Virus record (IMG/VR): IMGVR_UViG_3300033073_001657
Span: 29,419 to 93,418 of that record
DNA length: 64,000 bases
Source of the DNA: a virus
Lineage: Duplodnaviria; Heunggongvirae; Uroviricota; Caudoviricetes
Direction: 5' to 3' (one strand)
How positions within the stretch are numbered: position 1 is the first letter of the stretch; the number at the start of each line of letters is the position of its first letter. Below the pieces are notes generated by a model that made no database searches, was not told the origin of the DNA, and saw only the letters and a program-made list of their open reading frames with translations. The position numbers were made by a program, and so were the translations under genes. This document shows positions 28,953-63,180 of the stretch, piece by piece.

Positions 28953-30431
28953 ATGTTTAAGCCAATTTCGCTTTTTTACACCGATGGCTACAAGATCGGC
29001 CATCGTAAGATGTTATCTCCAGGAACAGATTTCCTTTATGGAACCTGGATTCCACGTAGCACAAAACATGCACCTAAGGGTATCACTAAAATCGTTTCTT
29101 TCGGTCAACAATTAGTTGTTCGATGGTTACATGACGAATTCGCTGAGAATTTCTTTAAACTTCCTAAAGACGAAGCTCTAAAGTTTGGTCAAGACATGTC
29201 GATGTATTTGGGTATGGAATTTGATGCATCACACTTTGCTGATCTTCATGATTTAGGTTACTTGCCTATTCGAATCAAGTCTCTACCTGAGGGAATTGAG
29301 ACTAGTCCAAATGTTCCTCACATGACATTCGTCAATACTGTCAATGGATTTGCATGGTTGACTCTTTATTTGGAGACAATCATCTCCTCTCTTGCATGGA
29401 AACCTGCGACATCAGCTACAATCGCTCTTCAGTACAAAAGAAACTTGGTGGAATGGGTAATGAAGACTGACCCTGCAAATGCTTGGTTAATTCCTTTCTT
29501 AGCTCACGACTTTAGCGCCAGAGGATTAAGCCCATGGGATATGTTATCTAGCGGACTTGGTCATGCTACCTCTTTTAGAGGCTCAGATTCAATCATCGTG
29601 ATTCCAGGAGCTCGATACTTCTATGGAGAACCAGAACATGAAGTTTGTATCAATTCAGTGAATGCTTCAGAGCACTCAGTGTCTACTACTTGTATCTTCA
29701 CGATGGGTGAATCGCAAATGTTAAAATACTTCATGGATCAGTTTCCTACTGGAATTCTTTCAGTTGTATCAGATACATTCGACCTATGGAAATTGATTAC
29801 TGAATACCTTCCTGAAAACAAGGAACAGATCATGTCACGTGATGGTAAATTAGTTATTCGTCCCGATTCTGGAAACCCAGTTGATATTCTTTGTGGATGG
29901 GGAGGGTTTGACCCTGAAGAGGAAAGTGAAGAAGCTAGAAACCAACCCCAAAATAAAGGAGTTATCGAATTACTTTGGGACATCTTCGGTGGAACCATCA
30001 ATGAACAGGGATTCAAAGTTCTAGATCCTCACATCGGTGCAATCTATGGAGATTCAATTACACTGGACCGTCAGATTCAAATCTATGAAAGATTGGCTGC
30101 AAAAGGATTCGCTGCAACAAATATCGTATTAGGTGTTGGATCATATACATATCAAATGAATACTCGAGACACTTTCGGATTTGCAGCTAAGGGTGCATGG
30201 TTTGAAGCAAATGGAGTAGGCTACGATATCTACAAAGATCCAATTACTGATGATGGAACTAAAAAGTCACTGAAAGGTCTGATCGCGGTAGATGAGGATC
30301 ATGTAGTACACACTCAATGTTCTTGGGAAGAGGAAGAGACTGGACTCTTACGTACTATTTATGAAGATGGAAAGTTCCTTAATGAGGACACTCTAACCCA
30401 GATTCGTGAACGATTAGACTCAGCAATATAA
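28953..30431 (+). CDS. nadV: nicotinamide phosphoribosyltransferase family (NAMPT/NadV; Namat-like)
   Basis: Motif-by-motif match to NAMPT: TDGYKIGH, LPIRIKSLPEGIE, LAHDFSARGLS, SVVSDTFDLW, LVIRPDSGNPVD and GVGYDIYKDPITD. Confidence 0.85.
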   Translation: MFKPISLFYTDGYKIGHRKMLSPGTDFLYGTWIPRSTKHAPKGITKIVSFGQQLVVRWLHDEFAENFFKLPKDEALKFGQDMSMYLGMEFDASHFADLHDLGYLPIRIKSLPEGIETSPNVPHMTFVNTVNGFAWLTLYLETIISSLAWKPATSATIALQYKRNLVEWVMKTDPANAWLIPFLAHDFSARGLSPWDMLSSGLGHATSFRGSDSIIVIPGARYFYGEPEHEVCINSVNASEHSVSTTCIFTMGESQMLKYFMDQFPTGILSVVSDTFDLWKLITEYLPENKEQIMSRDGKLVIRPDSGNPVDILCGWGGFDPEEESEEARNQPQNKGVIELLWDIFGGTINEQGFKVLDPHIGAIYGDSITLDRQIQIYERLAAKGFAATNIVLGVGSYTYQMNTRDTFGFAAKGAWFEANGVGYDIYKDPITDDGTKKSLKGLIAVDEDHVVHTQCSWEEEETGLLRTIYEDGKFLNEDTLTQIRERLDSAI

Positions 30432-30691
30432 TGAAACGATTAATTATCTTGAGTGCAGTTCTAGTTGGACTGCACTCTTGTGCCTTTGAAGACAAGGACA
30501 CTAAGAAGAACTCACCAGTCAAGTATTTAGATAAGTCTTCACAGTATTATGATAAGCAGTATGAAATATACATGTTAGACGGGTGTGAGTATATAGTAGT
30601 CAATCGAGGTATTACAAAATGGGGTTCACATAAAGGAGACTGTAAAAATCCAATACACATACATAATGGAGAAGTACATCCTTCTAATTGA
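30431..30691 (+). CDS. lipoprotein
   Basis: Signal peptide with a lipobox (LVGLHSC). Confidence 0.5.
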   Translation: MKRLIILSAVLVGLHSCAFEDKDTKKNSPVKYLDKSSQYYDKQYEIYMLDGCEYIVVNRGITKWGSHKGDCKNPIHIHNGEVHPSN

Positions 30692-31034
30692 TATCGATGG
30701 CACCATTTGTGAGGATATCAAGAATGAGGATTCTCATCTATACCATTCAGCCAGACCTATTGAGGGTGCTCGTGAACGGTGTAATGCGTGGTATAAGGCG
30801 GGTGCACAAATCCATTTCTTTACAGCTAGGGAATCTAAAGATCGTGAAGTGACTGAGTTATGGCTTCGTCGTGAAGGTTTTCAATATCATTCACTAGTAA
30901 TGGACAAACCTAGAATTAAGGAAGGCGAAGAGTATATCTGGATCGATAATCGAAAAGTCAGAGCAGTAACTTTTAAAGGATTATGGTCAGACCTGGTAGA
31001 ATATACAAAAAAGATTTTATCTTTTGAAGAATAA
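30666..31034 (+). CDS. small HAD-like phosphatase
   Basis: LLIDIDGTI matches the DxDGT motif. It is a paralog of ORFs 38770-39156 and 42531-42929. Confidence 0.55.
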   Translation: MEKYILLIDIDGTICEDIKNEDSHLYHSARPIEGARERCNAWYKAGAQIHFFTARESKDREVTELWLRREGFQYHSLVMDKPRIKEGEEYIWIDNRKVRAVTFKGLWSDLVEYTKKILSFEE

Positions 31035-31070
31035 TAGTATAATAATCAAATAATCAATTAAATTAAATAA

Positions 31071-32933
31071 ATGTTAGAAACAGTTTTAAATTATGCATGG
31101 ACGTTAATTCCATTTTTAGCTCTAGTGTTTTACAAATTCACATTAAGAGTATTTTTCGGTATGGTAATTATCCCAGAAGACAAGATCGGGTTAGTTACTA
31201 AAAAGTTTGTTCTCTTCGGAGCAAACCGCTCTCTACCTGATGGTAAAATCATTGCACTCAATGGTGAAGCCGGTTTCCAAGCAGACACTCTTGCTCCTGG
31301 TTTATATTGGGGCTTTTGGGTATGGCAGTATTCTATTGAACAGGCAAACTTAACGATCGTTGAAAAAGGTAAGATCGGTTTGATCTCAGCCAAGGACGGT
31401 GCTCAGCTTCCTACTGGTGCGATCTTAGCTCGACACGTAGAGTGTGATAATTTCCAAGATGCTCGTGCATTCTTAACAGGTGGAGGTCAACGTGGTAAGC
31501 AAGTAGGCTATTTAAACAATGGTGTGTATCGTATCAACCCACAGTTATTCGATATCTATGCTGCTGAAATTACTTATATCGAAGACGGACAGGTCGGAAT
31601 TATTACTGCACTTGATGGTGTTCCATTAGATCAAGGAAATATCGCTGGTAAGATGATCGAGGATCATAATAACTATCAAGATTTCGATAAGTTCTTGGAT
31701 CATGGGGGTCAACGTGGTCTACAGACACAAGTTATTCAAGCTGGTACATATACTCTAAGCCCATGGGCAGTACAAGTCGAAAAAGTACCAATGACTCAGA
31801 TTCCAATCGGTCATGTTGGAGTTGTTATCTCATTCGTTGGTGATGAAGGAGAGGATACTTCTGGAGATTCTTTTAAACACGGTAACATCGTGAAAAAAGG
31901 ACAAAAAGGTGTATGTATCACTCCATTAGATCCAGGTAAATACGCGATCAATCCATACACTCACAAGATCGAGGTGGTACCGACTACTAACTTGGTTCTT
32001 AACTGGGCGAATGCACGAAACGAGTCTCACCAGTTGGACAAAGGATTAAGTACAATCACAGTACGTTCTAAAGACGGTTTCCCATTCAACTTGGACGTAT
32101 CTCAAATCATCCATATCCCTGCAACTGAAGCGCCTAAAGTAATTGCACGATTCGGTTCAATGCAAAACTTGGTTTCTCAAGTATTAGAGCCGACTATCGG
32201 AAACTACTTCCGTAACTCTGCTCAAGACTCAGATGTGATCTCTTTCTTATCTACACGTCAAAAACGTCAGGATGCAGCTAAAGAGTCTATCTCTAAAGTA
32301 CTTGACGAATATAACGTACATGCAGTCGATACCTTAATTGGTGATATCACTCCACCTGCAGAATTGATGAAGACTCTTACTGATCGTAAGATTGCATCTG
32401 AAGAGGAGGTAACTTTCGAGACTCAACGTAAAGCTCAAGATCAACGTAAGACCTTAGAATCTGCAAAAGCATTGGCTGATATGCAAGGAAAAATGGTTGC
32501 TGCTCAACAGTCAGTAGAGATCTCACAACGTGAAGCTGAAGCTGCCGTTAAGAGATCTGAGGGTGAAGCTCAAGCGACTAAGTTGAAAGCTGGTGCTCAG
32601 GCTGAGGCTAAGAAAATGATGGCCGAAGCGGATGCTGCTCAAATCGAATTGACTGGTGCTGCTGAAGCAAGTAAGATCGAAGCGATCGGTAAGGCAACTG
32701 CTGAAGCGTATGACTTACAAGTTAAGGCAATGGGCGAGGACAACTTCGGTAAATTGAAAGTCACTGAGATGATCGGTACGAACGGCATCAAAATTATCCC
32801 AGAGATCCTGATCTCAGGTAATGATGGAGCCGGTTCAATCAATGGCTTACTTGGAATGGAAATGTTAAAACAAATCCAAGAGAAGAAAAAATCTGAAATT
32901 GCACCGACTAGTGTAACTCCTCCGACTGAGTAA
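31071..32933 (+). CDS. flotillin/SPFH(band-7)-like membrane protein
   Basis: N-terminal transmembrane helix and an internal duplicated GGQRG motif. The C-terminal coiled coil carries Ala/Glu-rich AEA repeats like the flotillin C-terminus. Confidence 0.4.
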   Translation: MLETVLNYAWTLIPFLALVFYKFTLRVFFGMVIIPEDKIGLVTKKFVLFGANRSLPDGKIIALNGEAGFQADTLAPGLYWGFWVWQYSIEQANLTIVEKGKIGLISAKDGAQLPTGAILARHVECDNFQDARAFLTGGGQRGKQVGYLNNGVYRINPQLFDIYAAEITYIEDGQVGIITALDGVPLDQGNIAGKMIEDHNNYQDFDKFLDHGGQRGLQTQVIQAGTYTLSPWAVQVEKVPMTQIPIGHVGVVISFVGDEGEDTSGDSFKHGNIVKKGQKGVCITPLDPGKYAINPYTHKIEVVPTTNLVLNWANARNESHQLDKGLSTITVRSKDGFPFNLDVSQIIHIPATEAPKVIARFGSMQNLVSQVLEPTIGNYFRNSAQDSDVISFLSTRQKRQDAAKESISKVLDEYNVHAVDTLIGDITPPAELMKTLTDRKIASEEEVTFETQRKAQDQRKTLESAKALADMQGKMVAAQQSVEISQREAEAAVKRSEGEAQATKLKAGAQAEAKKMMAEADAAQIELTGAAEASKIEAIGKATAEAYDLQVKAMGEDNFGKLKVTEMIGTNGIKIIPEILISGNDGAGSINGLLGMEMLKQIQEKKKSEIAPTSVTPPTE

Positions 32934-62808: not shown

Positions 62809-63054
62809 ATACATGAAGAAATTATTCAAGCTATTGAGATTCCTTGAGGACCATCGCATTAAGGCAATGATTTACACAGGATCGGCTAACTATTAAATCA
62901 GAACAGGATGGACTTTGCATTAGGATACATATCAGGCGTGATTGTCATGTGGGCAGCATCAAGAATGCTTAAAGCTCAATGGAAAAGAGACCTTGAAAAA
63001 TTAGAGGACTTTGATACTTGGAAGGAGTGGAAGAATAGAAAGAAAAACTAAAAT

Positions 63055-63165
63055 AGTCAGGTGGCGGAATGGTAGACGCACATCGGCAGGTGATTCTGAT
63101 TGAGGGTACACCGGCAGTCGAGGCCACAATCACATAGAATACAGGTTCGAATCCTGTCCTGACTA
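63055..63165 (+). tRNA. tRNA-like element (type-II/Leu-like D-arm) with non-canonical 61-nt anticodon/variable region
   Basis: A perfect 7-bp acceptor stem pairs AGTCAGG with CCTGACT. U8 is present. The D-arm GCGGAATGGTAGACGC matches tRNA-Leu GCGGAAUUGGUAGACGC. The T-arm is ACAGG-TTCGAAT-CCTGT with discriminator A. No canonical 5-bp/7-nt anticodon arm can be found between the D-arm and T-arm. Confidence 0.45.
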
Positions 63166-63180
63166 CTAAAAAATAATAAG

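What the first reader, a model, noticed from the sequence alone, without database searches (positions are those of the whole stretch)
63055..63165. tRNA-like element with canonical ends but a 61-nt non-canonical core
The acceptor stem is perfect (7 bp). The D-arm is Leu/Ser-type, GCGGAATGGTAGACGC. The T-arm GG-TTCGAAT-CC and the discriminator are textbook. However, 61 nt separate the D-arm and T-arm, where 21-38 nt is expected. No 5-bp stem with a 7-nt loop anticodon arm can be drawn there. The best helices are GTGATT/AATCAC (63090-95 with 63128-33) and a direct repeat CGGCAG (63084-89 and 63112-17). Possible explanations are an intron-containing or insertion-disrupted tRNA, a tRNA pseudogene, or a tRNA-like structure with another role. 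Such roles could include an integration or attachment relic, or a decoy or target for anticodon nucleases.
Basis: seen in the sequence. Interest (0 to 1): 0.6.

Follow-up and report, generated by a model that had tools for sequence, protein, structure and literature searches.

The report
Phage tRNA-shaped scaffold RNA, no anticodon
This 111-nt phage RNA keeps the upper half of a leucine tRNA but has a folded insert where the anticodon should be, and it belongs to a large, apparently undescribed family of phage RNAs that share this tRNA frame and carry more than 100 unrelated inserts.

Summary
Window 63055-63165 (+) has a perfect acceptor stem, a Leu-type D-arm, a canonical T-arm, discriminator A, and 61 nt where an anticodon arm should be.

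It is neither a broken nor an intron-containing tRNA. Eighteen distinct homologs keep the core at 82-96% identity, while their flanking DNA and genes are unrelated. Covariation and RNAalifold support a long hairpin, 63098-63107 paired with 63123-63131.

The same scaffold occurs in at least 170 non-redundant uncultured-virus loci (275 members, at least 111 unrelated cores, 70-169 nt in total). Up to six sit in one locus, often inside tRNA arrays. Their flanks match those of genuine tRNAs in the same arrays (T at -1, C after the discriminator). None was found in 50,697 isolated phages, in isolate bacterial genomes, in Rfam families other than tRNA, or in the searchable literature.

Best reading (confidence about 0.58): a tRNA-Leu-derived scaffold RNA, matured by the tRNA-processing enzymes, whose insert is the functional part. 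What the insert does is unknown. Charging with leucine is plausible but untested.

The parts
63055..63165 (+). Whole tRNA-shaped scaffold RNA (111 nt, including discriminator A63165)
   Evidence: Rfam RF00005 41.7 bits at these exact ends. Similarity to 30 other loci begins and ends at the element. Covariance model R1 scores subfamily members 137-143 bits.
63054..63054 (+). T at position -1, the preferred context for RNase P cleavage; 3 nt after the stop codon (63049-51) of a 47-aa ORF
   Evidence: Sequence. T at -1 in 139/168 family members and in 325/476 genuine tRNAs of the same phage arrays.
63055..63061 (+). Acceptor stem, 5' strand AGTCAGG (pairs with 63158-63164)
   Evidence: 7/7 pairs. 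Four of the seven pairs show changes on both sides among 18 homologs, 99.2% paired.
63064..63079 (+). Leu-type D-arm GCG-GAATGGTAGA-CGC (A14, A15, G18, G19, U20, A20a)
   Evidence: A14, A15, G18, G19, U20 and A20a are invariant in the core-selected alignment A1. Same D-arm as a canonical phage tRNA-Leu(TAG) in L254.
63081..63092 (+). Possible remnant of the anticodon arm: 4-bp stem CATC/GGTG capped by GGCA (no anticodon). Alternatively part of a pseudoknot with 63109-63121.
   Evidence: RNAalifold consensus. ACATCG is the 5' strand of the anticodon stem in the related tRNA-Leu of L254. These columns were fixed by my search pattern, so covariation cannot test them. The pseudoknot alternatives are 100% and 98.9% paired.
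63098..63131 (+). Long irregular hairpin in the variable-arm position: GATTG 63098-102 with CAATC 63127-131; GGT 63105-107 with GCC 63123-125; apical C-GGCA-G
   Evidence: Covariation: pair 63099-63130 is UA 11 / AU 6 / GC 1; pair 63106-63124 is AU 10 / GC 8. The helix is 100% paired. RNAalifold predicts it independently.
63132..63140 (+). Variable linker ending in T63140 (U48, partner of A15 in the Levitt pair)
   Evidence: Most variable stretch of alignment A1, with a 6-nt deletion in L253. T immediately before the T-stem in 101/111 non-redundant cores.
63141..63157 (+). T-arm ACAGG-TTCGAAT-CCTGT
   Evidence: Three of the five pairs show changes on both sides (for example ACTCG/CGGGT in L256), 98.9% paired.
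63158..63166 (+). Acceptor 3' strand CCTGACT, discriminator A63165, then C63166. CCA is not encoded (ACTAAAA).
   Evidence: Discriminator A in 112/124. C after the discriminator in 163/168 members and in 449/476 genuine tRNAs of the same arrays.

Best explanation
The element is a stable non-coding RNA built on a tRNA frame. It descends from a class II (leucine-type) phage tRNA and keeps everything that makes the upper half and corner of the tRNA L-shape: the 7-bp acceptor stem, discriminator A73, U8/A14, A15-U48, G18G19, A20a and the T-arm.

The anticodon arm is lost or reduced to a short capped stem. The variable-arm region has grown into a conserved 34-nt hairpin domain.

Proposed mechanism:
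1. It is transcribed together with the small flanking ORFs.
2. RNase P cuts it out at the 5' end.
3. The 3' end is trimmed and CCA is completed, exactly as for the true tRNAs encoded by these phages.
4. The tRNA fold gives it stability and defined ends.
5. The folded insert is the working part. It probably binds a specific host or phage factor.

It cannot read codons. It is one member of a large modular family in uncultured phages: the same frame with more than 100 unrelated inserts, often several per genome.

Shown here: the fold, its conservation, the family, the tRNA-like flank signature, and the absence of an anticodon arm. Inferred: processing by RNase P and the CCA-adding enzyme, and that the insert is an effector. 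Unknown: what the insert binds or does.
For: Real and conserved:
- Rfam tRNA 41.7 bits.
- 18 distinct homologs. Similarity (82-96%) is confined to the element, and none of 11 flanking window proteins has a homolog in those 30 loci.

Structure:
- 99.6% of cells paired, against 28-41% when partners are slid. Nine pairs change on both sides, 0/500 shuffles reach this.
- RNAalifold independently returns the same core hairpin.

Not a decoder:
- ARAGORN finds none.
- Intron-mode calls are inconsistent.

Family:
- Pattern scans give 239 loci.
- At least 111 non-redundant cores.
- 170 non-redundant loci with 275 members, up to 6 per locus, 70-169 nt.
- Bimodal model scores, 137-143 against 67 bits or less, show discrete core families.
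- A second unrelated subfamily also shows compensatory pairs in its insert.
- Cores are more structured than dinucleotide shuffles: mean z -0.76, p = 5e-11.
- Inserts are typically stem-closed, starting about 4 nt after the D-stem and ending about 2 nt before the T-stem.

Processed like tRNAs:
- Members lie inside tRNA arrays.
- They share the flank signature of the genuine tRNAs there: T at -1, C after the discriminator, CAA trailer.

Other:
- No own sigma-70-type promoter or terminator.
- Origin: same D-arm and ACATCG junction as a canonical tRNA-Leu(TAG) in L254.
Against: - No expression, processing or binding data exist.
- The target of the insert is unknown, and no recurrent protein partner was found.
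- The single-sequence fold of this element is not unusually stable (z = -0.97).
- Loci were retrieved with exact-match patterns. D-arm and T-loop conservation across the family is therefore partly imposed, as is invariance of 63080-63095 and 63100-63105 within the subfamily.
- Selection on the insert could merely be selection to fold on its own and not disturb the frame.
- The core shows no antisense match to the window beyond chance and no similarity to known aptamers or ribozymes. So there is no positive clue to its activity.
Confidence: 0.58

Rival explanations
1. A leucine-accepting tRNA mimic. Host LeuRS charges the RNA, since LeuRS needs neither the anticodon nor the variable arm. The charged or uncharged mimic then acts outside decoding. 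It might titrate LeuRS or EF-Tu, feed an aminoacyl-tRNA-dependent transferase, or report on or perturb amino-acid signalling. This can coexist with the main explanation.
For: The scaffold keeps the full published E. coli leucine identity set: A73, A14, A15-U48, G18G19, A20a and the D/T-loop tertiary pairs. tRNA-Leu lacking both the anticodon arm and the variable arm is still charged (PMC9976931). Features my patterns did not impose: discriminator A in 112/124, T48 in 101/111, and A14, A15, G18, G19 and A20a invariant in the core-selected alignment.
Against: These features are also what simple descent from a tRNA-Leu, plus the need to keep the tRNA fold, would leave. The identity rules come from E. 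coli and Aquifex, and the hosts here are unknown. This idea does not explain why more than 100 different structured inserts are maintained. Nothing was tested biochemically.
Confidence: 0.15
2. A transcript punctuation signal, like plant mitochondrial t-elements or the mascRNA end of MALAT1. Only the tRNA frame matters. RNase P and 3' cleavage at the frame cut polycistronic phage mRNAs and set the stability of the neighbouring genes. The insert is a tolerated passenger.
For: In the window the element sits 3 nt after one ORF and 15 nt before the next, on the same strand, with no promoter or terminator of its own. In 15 loci it lies about 28 nt upstream of the terminase large-subunit gene. A conserved frame with a hypervariable interior is what this model predicts.
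Against: Tandem arrays of 4-8 members with no ORFs between them are hard to explain as punctuation. Inserts are conserved at 82-96% across unrelated contexts and show compensatory changes in two subfamilies, so they are not free passengers. Ordinary tRNAs in the same arrays would already serve as cleavage sites.
Confidence: 0.12
3. A working tRNA interrupted by an intron or a small insertion that is removed to give a normal decoder.
For: ARAGORN with introns allowed returns tRNA-Thr(GGT) with a 17-nt intron. The 5' end of the core is a relic of a tRNA-Leu anticodon stem.
Against: That model has a 4-bp stem with a G-U pair, A at position 33 and an unpaired 30-nt 'variable arm'. In homologs the call changes to Val or Cys, or disappears in 10 of 18. 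Across the family, intron mode yields nearly every isotype with arbitrary intron positions on a Leu-type body. Members with 20-nt cores cannot hold an anticodon arm. At 61 nt the spacer is far below group I intron size, and no intron family matched.
Confidence: 0.03
4. A decaying tRNA-Leu pseudogene, or a selfish or recombination module with no function for the phage.
For: Broken copies exist: L261 lacks the 5' acceptor strand and L266 has its 3' part replaced. Positions are not syntenic even among related phages.
Against: There are compensatory substitutions in the acceptor stem, the T-stem and the insert. The tertiary-pair nucleotides are retained. The core is highly conserved while all flanking sequence has diverged beyond recognition. 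Presence in at least 170 non-redundant loci argues for selection.
Confidence: 0.05
5. A decoy or sponge for a host protein that recognises the tRNA elbow or acceptor end, such as a tRNA-targeting defence toxin. Alternatively an attachment-site relic.
For: Many defence systems target tRNAs, and phage tRNA arrays are thought to counter them (general knowledge, not tested here). The invariant part is the elbow and acceptor module.
Against: There is no anticodon loop, so it cannot mimic the substrates of anticodon nucleases. A pure decoy would not need more than 100 different structured inserts. On the attachment-site idea: the scaffold sequence is absent from isolate bacterial genomes (8 hits, all on MAG contigs) and no integrase recurs nearby.
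Confidence: 0.07

Closest known systems
Class II bacterial/phage tRNA-Leu
   Same: 7-bp acceptor stem, A73, 3-bp D-stem with the loop GAAUGGUAGA, A15-U48, canonical T-arm. Same D-arm and ACATCG junction as a canonical tRNA-Leu(TAG) in a phage that carries this RNA (L254). Same flank signature as the genuine tRNAs of these arrays.
   Different: No 5-bp stem with 7-nt loop and no anticodon. The variable-arm region is a 34-nt irregular hairpin followed by a 9-nt linker. Rfam scores are 33-49 bits, against 50-74 bits for neighbouring true tRNAs.
Phage T4 species 1 / species 2 RNAs (rnaC, rnaD)
   Same: Stable RNAs of unknown function encoded in a phage tRNA cluster. rnaC has a tRNA-like 3' domain (acceptor ACGGAACG/CGTTTCGT, T-arm CCGGG-TTCGAAT-CCCGG) around a non-canonical core of about 59 nt.
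   Different: No sequence relationship. rnaC has a 5' extension of about 46 nt and no clear Leu-type D-arm, and it scores below the Rfam tRNA thresholds (17.5 bits). No family with one frame and many inserts is known for it.
Engineered 'tRNA scaffold' for recombinant RNA expression (Ponchon and Dardel approach; PMC3401473, PMC3753655 seen)
   Same: The same design principle. An RNA of interest replaces the anticodon stem-loop of a tRNA. The tRNA frame provides processing by cellular enzymes and protection from nucleases. Family inserts are typically stem-closed at the same junction.
   Different: That is a laboratory construct; this is natural. The frame here is Leu-type, and in the window copy the insert lies mainly in the variable-arm position.
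tmRNA tRNA-like domain
   Same: Acceptor stem plus T-arm, no anticodon, pseudoknot-rich body. Also encoded by some of these phages (L060).
   Different: tmRNA is about 300-400 nt, has a tag reading frame, lacks a true D-stem and is charged with alanine. The Rfam tmRNA model does not match here. The reading frames in the core are not conserved among homologs (read from alignment A1).
Bacterial Y RNA-like YrlA (tRNA mimic; PMC4201824)
   Same: A non-coding RNA that mimics the tRNA D/T-loop elbow and acceptor-like stem, and is also found in some phages.
   Different: In YrlA the RNA termini lie in the Ro-binding stem and the tRNA-like acceptor is closed by a loop, so the topology is permuted. No Rfam hit here. 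No Ro/Rsr gene was seen nearby.
tRNA-like processing signals (plant mitochondrial t-elements, MALAT1 mascRNA)
   Same: tRNA-shaped elements cut by RNase P/Z within longer transcripts. The window copy lies between two ORFs.
   Different: Those are eukaryotic or organellar, occur singly, and have no conserved inserted domains. Tandem ORF-free arrays do not fit.

Membership tests
Canonical decoding tRNA (Rfam RF00005) | 7-bp acceptor stem plus discriminator, D-arm with A14/G18G19, T-arm with the GTTCRANYC loop | tested here: met
   Sequence. Rfam 41.7 bits against a gathering score of 29. Stems covary.
Canonical decoding tRNA (Rfam RF00005) | Anticodon arm: 5-bp stem and 7-nt loop with U33 and a purine at 37, presenting an anticodon | tested here: not met
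   ARAGORN default finds none in the window. The Rfam alignment skips 55 nt. The covariation-supported structure leaves no such arm.
Intron-containing tRNA (bacterial group I intron in the anticodon loop, or archaeal bulge-helix-bulge intron) | Removing one contiguous segment leaves a canonical tRNA whose identity is the same in homologs | tested here: not met
   ARAGORN -i gives Thr, Val, Cys or nothing among 18 homologs, and arbitrary isotypes and intron positions across 196 family members.
Intron-containing tRNA (bacterial group I intron in the anticodon loop, or archaeal bulge-helix-bulge intron) | Intron with a group I catalytic core (usually over 200 nt) | tested here: not met
   The spacer is 61 nt. 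No intron family matched at E <= 5.
tmRNA | tRNA-like domain plus tag reading frame and pseudoknots, about 300-400 nt, matched by RF00023 | tested here: not met
   111 nt. No tmRNA hit. No conserved reading frame in alignment A1.
YrlA / bacterial Y RNA | Termini form a Ro-binding stem, and the tRNA-like module is internal (permuted) | tested here: not met
   The termini form the acceptor stem. No Rfam Y RNA hit.
Substrate of LeuRS (leucine identity, E. coli rules) | A73, A14, A15-U48 Levitt pair, G18G19, A20a, intact D/T-loop tertiary pairs. Anticodon and variable arm not required. | tested here: met
   All are present in the window copy and conserved. Rules taken from PMC9976931. This shows only that the sequence is compatible.
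Substrate of LeuRS (leucine identity, E. coli rules) | Actual aminoacylation with leucine | not testable with these tools
   Needs an in vitro charging assay or in vivo charged-RNA assays.
RNase P / tRNA 3'-end processing substrate | Coaxial acceptor/T-arm helix of 12 bp, elbow, favourable -1 nucleotide, and a trailer like that of co-encoded tRNAs | tested here: met
   Structure. T at -1 and C after the discriminator, as in 476 genuine tRNAs of the same arrays. Cleavage itself was not tested.
T4 species 1 RNA (rnaC)-like | Sequence or model-detectable homology to T4 rnaC | tested here: not met
   No similarity. blastn of the element against 50,697 phage records gives only partial hits to ordinary tRNAs. 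rnaC has a different architecture. The resemblance is conceptual.
Phage attachment site derived from a host tRNA gene | Identity to the 3' part of a host tRNA gene, with an integrase nearby | tested here: not met
   The 25-nt 5' half occurs in only 8 MAG contigs among 185,579 species genomes. No integrase is among the recurrent neighbours. Multiple copies occur per locus.

The most novel reading that the evidence does not exclude
Uncultured phages carry a combinatorial repertoire of natural 'tRNA-scaffolded aptamers'. One invariant tRNA-Leu-derived frame guarantees processing, stability and possibly leucylation. It displays more than 100 interchangeable structured RNA domains, held in arrays beside true tRNAs and exchanged between unrelated phages. 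Each domain would act as an RNA effector against a host factor, for example by sequestering a defence protein, a signalling nucleotide or a translation component. That would make this an RNA-based counterpart of protein anti-defence gene cassettes.
Probability: 0.25. Interest if true: 0.92.

Novelty: new variant of a known kind. Interest (0 to 1): 0.8.

Why it matters
Phage tRNA clusters have long been known to hold odd stable RNAs with no assigned function; the T4 species 1 and 2 RNAs are still annotated only as small stable RNAs. This family puts that puzzle on a comparative footing. It gives hundreds of loci, one precisely defined frame, discrete insert families with covariation, and clear experimental predictions about RNase P cleavage, CCA addition, LeuRS charging and insert-specific partners.

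If the inserts are effectors, this would be a new class of phage-encoded RNA tools. It would also be a natural precedent for the tRNA-scaffold trick used in RNA biotechnology.

There is a practical point too. tRNA finders either miss these RNAs or call them as random isotypes or 'intron-containing' tRNAs. That distorts tRNA and codon-usage annotation in phage metagenomes.

Tried and rejected
1. Intron-containing tRNA. ARAGORN -i calls are inconsistent within the subfamily and across the family.
2. It is broken in most homologs.
3. A canonical 'parent' tRNA with the same frame and a normal-sized core. The short-core members are not real tRNAs either.
4. Presence in isolated phages. None of 50,697 records holds both halves.
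5. A host origin for the frame. Only 8 MAG contigs match, and no isolate genomes.
6. A dedicated neighbouring protein. There is none; the recurrent neighbours are terminase subunits, an exonuclease and unknowns. The window's neighbours are ORFans and have no relatives near other copies.
7. The core as an antisense or guide RNA. The best match in the window scores 24 bits, against up to 30 bits for shuffles.
8. The core as a known aptamer or ribozyme. Nothing matched at permissive Rfam thresholds.
9. A general pseudoknot between the 5' tail and a hairpin loop across cores. Mean z is about 0.
10. A Shine-Dalgarno-like motif shared by cores. It looked enriched against mononucleotide shuffles. It is not significant against dinucleotide shuffles (58 against 47.5 +/- 5.3), and the reverse-complement control behaves similarly.
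11. Concerted evolution of acceptor variants within a genome. L257 is the only case, 1 of 48 pairs against about 0.3 expected.
12. A tmRNA-like tag frame. There is a 12-codon frame ending at TAG 63135-37 in the window copy, but it is not conserved in homologs (alignment A1).
13. The pseudoknot models 63083-87/63117-21 and 63086-92/63109-15 against the nested mini-hairpin 63081-92. All are compatible with the data. They cannot be resolved because those columns were fixed by the retrieval pattern.
14. Literature. Six full-text searches found no description of this family.
Full report
1. THE OBSERVATION

- acceptor stem AGTCAGG (63055-61) with CCTGACT (63158-64), 7/7 pairs;
- U8 G9 (63062-63);
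- D-arm GCG-GAATGGTAGA-CGC (63064-79);
- T-arm ACAGG-TTCGAAT-CCTGT (63141-57);
- discriminator A (63165);
- a 61-nt spacer (63080-63140).

Rfam's tRNA model matches exactly 63055-63165 at 41.7 bits (gathering score 29), skipping 55 nt in the middle. Default ARAGORN finds no tRNA anywhere in the 64 kb. So this is a real tRNA-shaped element without a recognisable anticodon arm, and it is the only tRNA-like sequence in the window.

2. THE GENOME

The window comes from a divergent T4-like large phage. It has a Gp20-type portal, a UvsW-like helicase, a family-B polymerase, NAPRTase and an SPFH protein. The closest portals, at 31-38% identity, are in uncultured huge phages and Lak megaphages. There is no nucleotide match in 50,697 phage records.

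The element lies 3 nt after the stop codon of a 47-aa ORF and 15 nt before a 109-aa ORF, on the same strand. It has no sigma-70-type promoter or terminator of its own. Its neighbours are ORFans.

3. IT IS NOT A ONE-OFF

Scans with shorter (18-47 nt) and longer (77-107 nt) spacers added 55 and 67 more.

Features the first scan's pattern did not impose are strongly conserved:
- a perfect 7-bp acceptor stem in 117/124, mostly the very sequence AGTCAGG/CCTGACT;
- discriminator A in 112/124;
- T immediately before the T-stem in 101/111. With A15 this is the A15-U48 Levitt pair;
- T at -1 in 139/168 and C after the discriminator in 163/168, with no encoded CCA.

The interior, in contrast, falls into at least 111 unrelated sequence families, 20-107 nt long. 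With a detector that fixes only the tRNA geometry and a Leu-type D-arm, I count 275 members in 170 non-redundant loci. Total lengths run from 70 to 169 nt, with a median of 110. Up to six members sit in one locus. They lie on one strand, often inside large arrays of ordinary tRNAs.

The short-core members are not canonical tRNAs either. ARAGORN fails on them or assigns scattered identities to the same body. So there is no ordinary 'parent' tRNA with this frame.

The frame is absent from isolated phages. Among 185,579 species genomes it occurs on only 8 short MAG contigs, three of them binned as Chitinophagaceae or Sediminibacterium. It is therefore virus-borne and not a copy of a host gene.

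4. THE WINDOW'S OWN SUBFAMILY

A core-specific pattern retrieved 31 copies, 20 of them distinct, from viral and metagenome contigs of up to 222 kb. Eighteen intact sequences were aligned as A1.

Similarity to the window (82-96%) begins and ends at the element. None of 11 flanking window proteins has a homolog in the 30 loci. In those phages the RNA is usually one member of an array of 3-7 frame RNAs with different inserts, interleaved with true tRNAs. Relatives of the window's phage carry frame RNAs at other, non-syntenic places. In L224, for example, one lies 30 nt after the NAPRTase homolog, whereas the window has none there.

A covariance model of the subfamily scores its members at 137-143 bits and every other frame RNA at 67 bits or less. 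Insert families are therefore discrete, without intermediates.

5. STRUCTURE

Covariation confirms the tRNA frame. Four acceptor pairs and three T-stem pairs change on both sides, for example AGTCCTG/CAGGACT and ACTCG/CGGGT.

In the core, two columns that my search pattern left free covary perfectly:
- 63099 with 63130 (U-A 11, A-U 6, G-C 1);
- 63106 with 63124 (A-U 10, G-C 8), where L079 breaks the phylogenetic grouping.

These define a hairpin: GATTG/CAATC (63098-102 with 63127-131) plus GGT/GCC (63105-107 with 63123-125). It is 100% paired, and RNAalifold predicts the same hairpin independently. The whole model is 99.6% paired, against 28-41% for slid partners, and 0/500 shuffles reach the observed values.

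It is only 74.8% paired.

The 5' part of the core (63081-63097) can form any of three structures:
- a 4-bp stem capped by GGCA (63081-92);
- a pseudoknot with 63117-121;
- a pseudoknot with 63109-115.

These columns were fixed by my retrieval pattern, so I cannot choose between them.

The linker 63132-63139 is the most variable stretch and is partly deleted in L253.

The first bases of the core (ACATCG) equal the 5' strand of the anticodon stem of a canonical tRNA-Leu(TAG) with the same D-arm in L254. The RNA is therefore a tRNA-Leu derivative in which the anticodon arm was lost or reduced and the variable-arm region expanded.

6. ARE THE INSERTS SELECTED IN GENERAL?

- Cores are more structured than dinucleotide shuffles (mean z -0.76, p = 5e-11).
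- They are typically closed by a stem that starts about 4 nt after the D-stem and ends about 2 nt before the T-stem.
- A second, unrelated subfamily (11 distinct sequences, alignment A2) keeps a 6-bp stem at the canonical anticodon-stem position, then an internal loop, a second 6-bp stem and a 9-nt loop. It has compensatory pairs, C-G to U-A and C-G to G-C, and 98.5-100% pairing.

So the frame carries genuine folded domains, placed in the anticodon-arm or the variable-arm position.

7. MATURATION

The 476 genuine tRNAs encoded in the same loci have T at -1 (68%) and C after the discriminator (94%), with 'CAA' as the commonest trailer. The frame RNAs show the same signature.

The frame also has an intact 12-bp acceptor/T-arm helix and an intact elbow. 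From this I infer, but have not shown, that the RNA is cut by RNase P at 63054/63055, trimmed at the 3' end and completed with CCA.

8. LEUCINE IDENTITY

By the published E. coli rules (PMC9976931), leucine identity rests on A73, the A15-U48 pair, G18G19, A20a and the D/T-loop tertiary pairs. [quoted passage not shown]

The frame keeps all of these. Charging is therefore plausible. However, the same features follow from descent from tRNA-Leu, and nothing was tested.

9. WHAT IT IS NOT

- An intron-containing tRNA.
- A pseudogene. Covariation and conservation in unrelated contexts argue against it.
- A tmRNA, a Y RNA, or a known aptamer or ribozyme.
- An antisense RNA to anything in the window.
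- An attachment site.

No recurrent protein partner exists. In 15 smaller phages the RNA lies about 28 nt upstream of the terminase large-subunit gene.

10. COMPARISON WITH KNOWN SYSTEMS, AND VERDICT

The element works like the engineered tRNA scaffold. It recalls T4 species 1 RNA, which I checked directly. T4 rnaC has a tRNA-like acceptor and T-arm around an odd core of about 59 nt, but no sequence relationship to this family. Six literature searches and Rfam gave no description of a family with one tRNA frame and many inserts.

I conclude that the finding is real. The element is a member of a large, apparently undescribed class of phage tRNA-Leu-derived scaffold RNAs. The function of the insert remains unknown. 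My preferred mechanism is a tRNA-processed, stable effector RNA. The rivals are a leucylated mimic, transcript punctuation, and a decoy.

11. CAVEATS

All loci were retrieved by exact-match patterns, so the conservation of the D-arm and T-loop across the family, and of 63080-63095 and 63100-63105 within the subfamily, is partly imposed. Two of the three family scans also fixed the acceptor 3' strand, which inflates the share of AGTCAGG in the pooled counts. Hosts and expression are unknown.

Noticed in passing
L165, L177, L163, L188, L216, L232, L091, L133, L101, L212, L084, L077, L032, L061, L046, L005 and others: the 25-30 nt immediately 5' of the frame RNA: A small conserved leader hairpin, TGAC-R-[4-6 bp covarying stem]-GAAAGA-[stem']-AAYAT, ends 4-6 nt before position +1 in about 30 of 268 members, whose farther-upstream sequence is otherwise unrelated. 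Its geometry does not fit a sigma-70 promoter. Two other recurrent leaders exist (…CTGGGGGTAAT… and ACAACACAGAGGACTTCTCATCCTCAACAT). The window copy has none of these.
   Followed up: partly
L146 5774-6004 (+): A sub-threshold but full-length match to the archaeal-type RNase P RNA model (RF00373, 48 bits against a gathering score of 84, E = 1.9e-10). It lies directly after a long phage tRNA array that also holds four frame RNAs. It may be a phage-encoded minimal RNase P RNA.
   Followed up: no
L038 1293-1710 (+); L060 8670-9115 (-): A GOLLD RNA (262 bits), immediately followed by a tRNA, and a phage-encoded tmRNA (65.5 bits) occur in loci that also carry frame RNAs. So these phages concentrate several large or unusual non-coding RNAs around their tRNA islands.
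   Followed up: no
L257 (168-kb contig), reverse-strand coordinates 1108-2295: Three frame RNAs with different inserts, including the window's insert type, share the rare acceptor variant AGTCCTG/CAGGACT. This suggests local gene conversion or duplication with insert replacement. Across all loci such sharing is not statistically supported (1 of 48 pairs).
   Followed up: yes
L261 109-226 and L266 784-870: Damaged copies of the window's subfamily. L261 has lost the 5' acceptor strand and D-stem. L266 diverges completely after ...GGCAGTCG. So copies do decay or recombine.
   Followed up: partly
L224 5377-5501 compared with window 30431-31071: A relative of the window's phage (proteins 54-72% identical) has a 125-nt frame RNA with a different insert 30 nt downstream of its NAPRTase gene. 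The window has no such RNA after its NAPRTase gene (28953-30431). The RNAs are therefore gained and lost at different sites within one phage lineage.
   Followed up: partly
L288 (phage T4) 2409-2547 (-), rnaC: T4 species 1 RNA contains a recognisable tRNA-like 3' domain (8-bp acceptor ACGGAACG/CGTTTCGT and T-arm CCGGG-TTCGAAT-CCCGG) that Rfam's tRNA models score below threshold (17.5 bits for tRNA-Sec).
   Followed up: partly
window 1-64000: Apart from this element, the 64-kb window of a large T4-like phage has no tRNA or other Rfam-detectable RNA, whereas related contigs carry arrays of up to 24 tRNAs. Several large ORFs (727, 505, 498, 457 and 380 aa) have no Pfam match.
   Followed up: no
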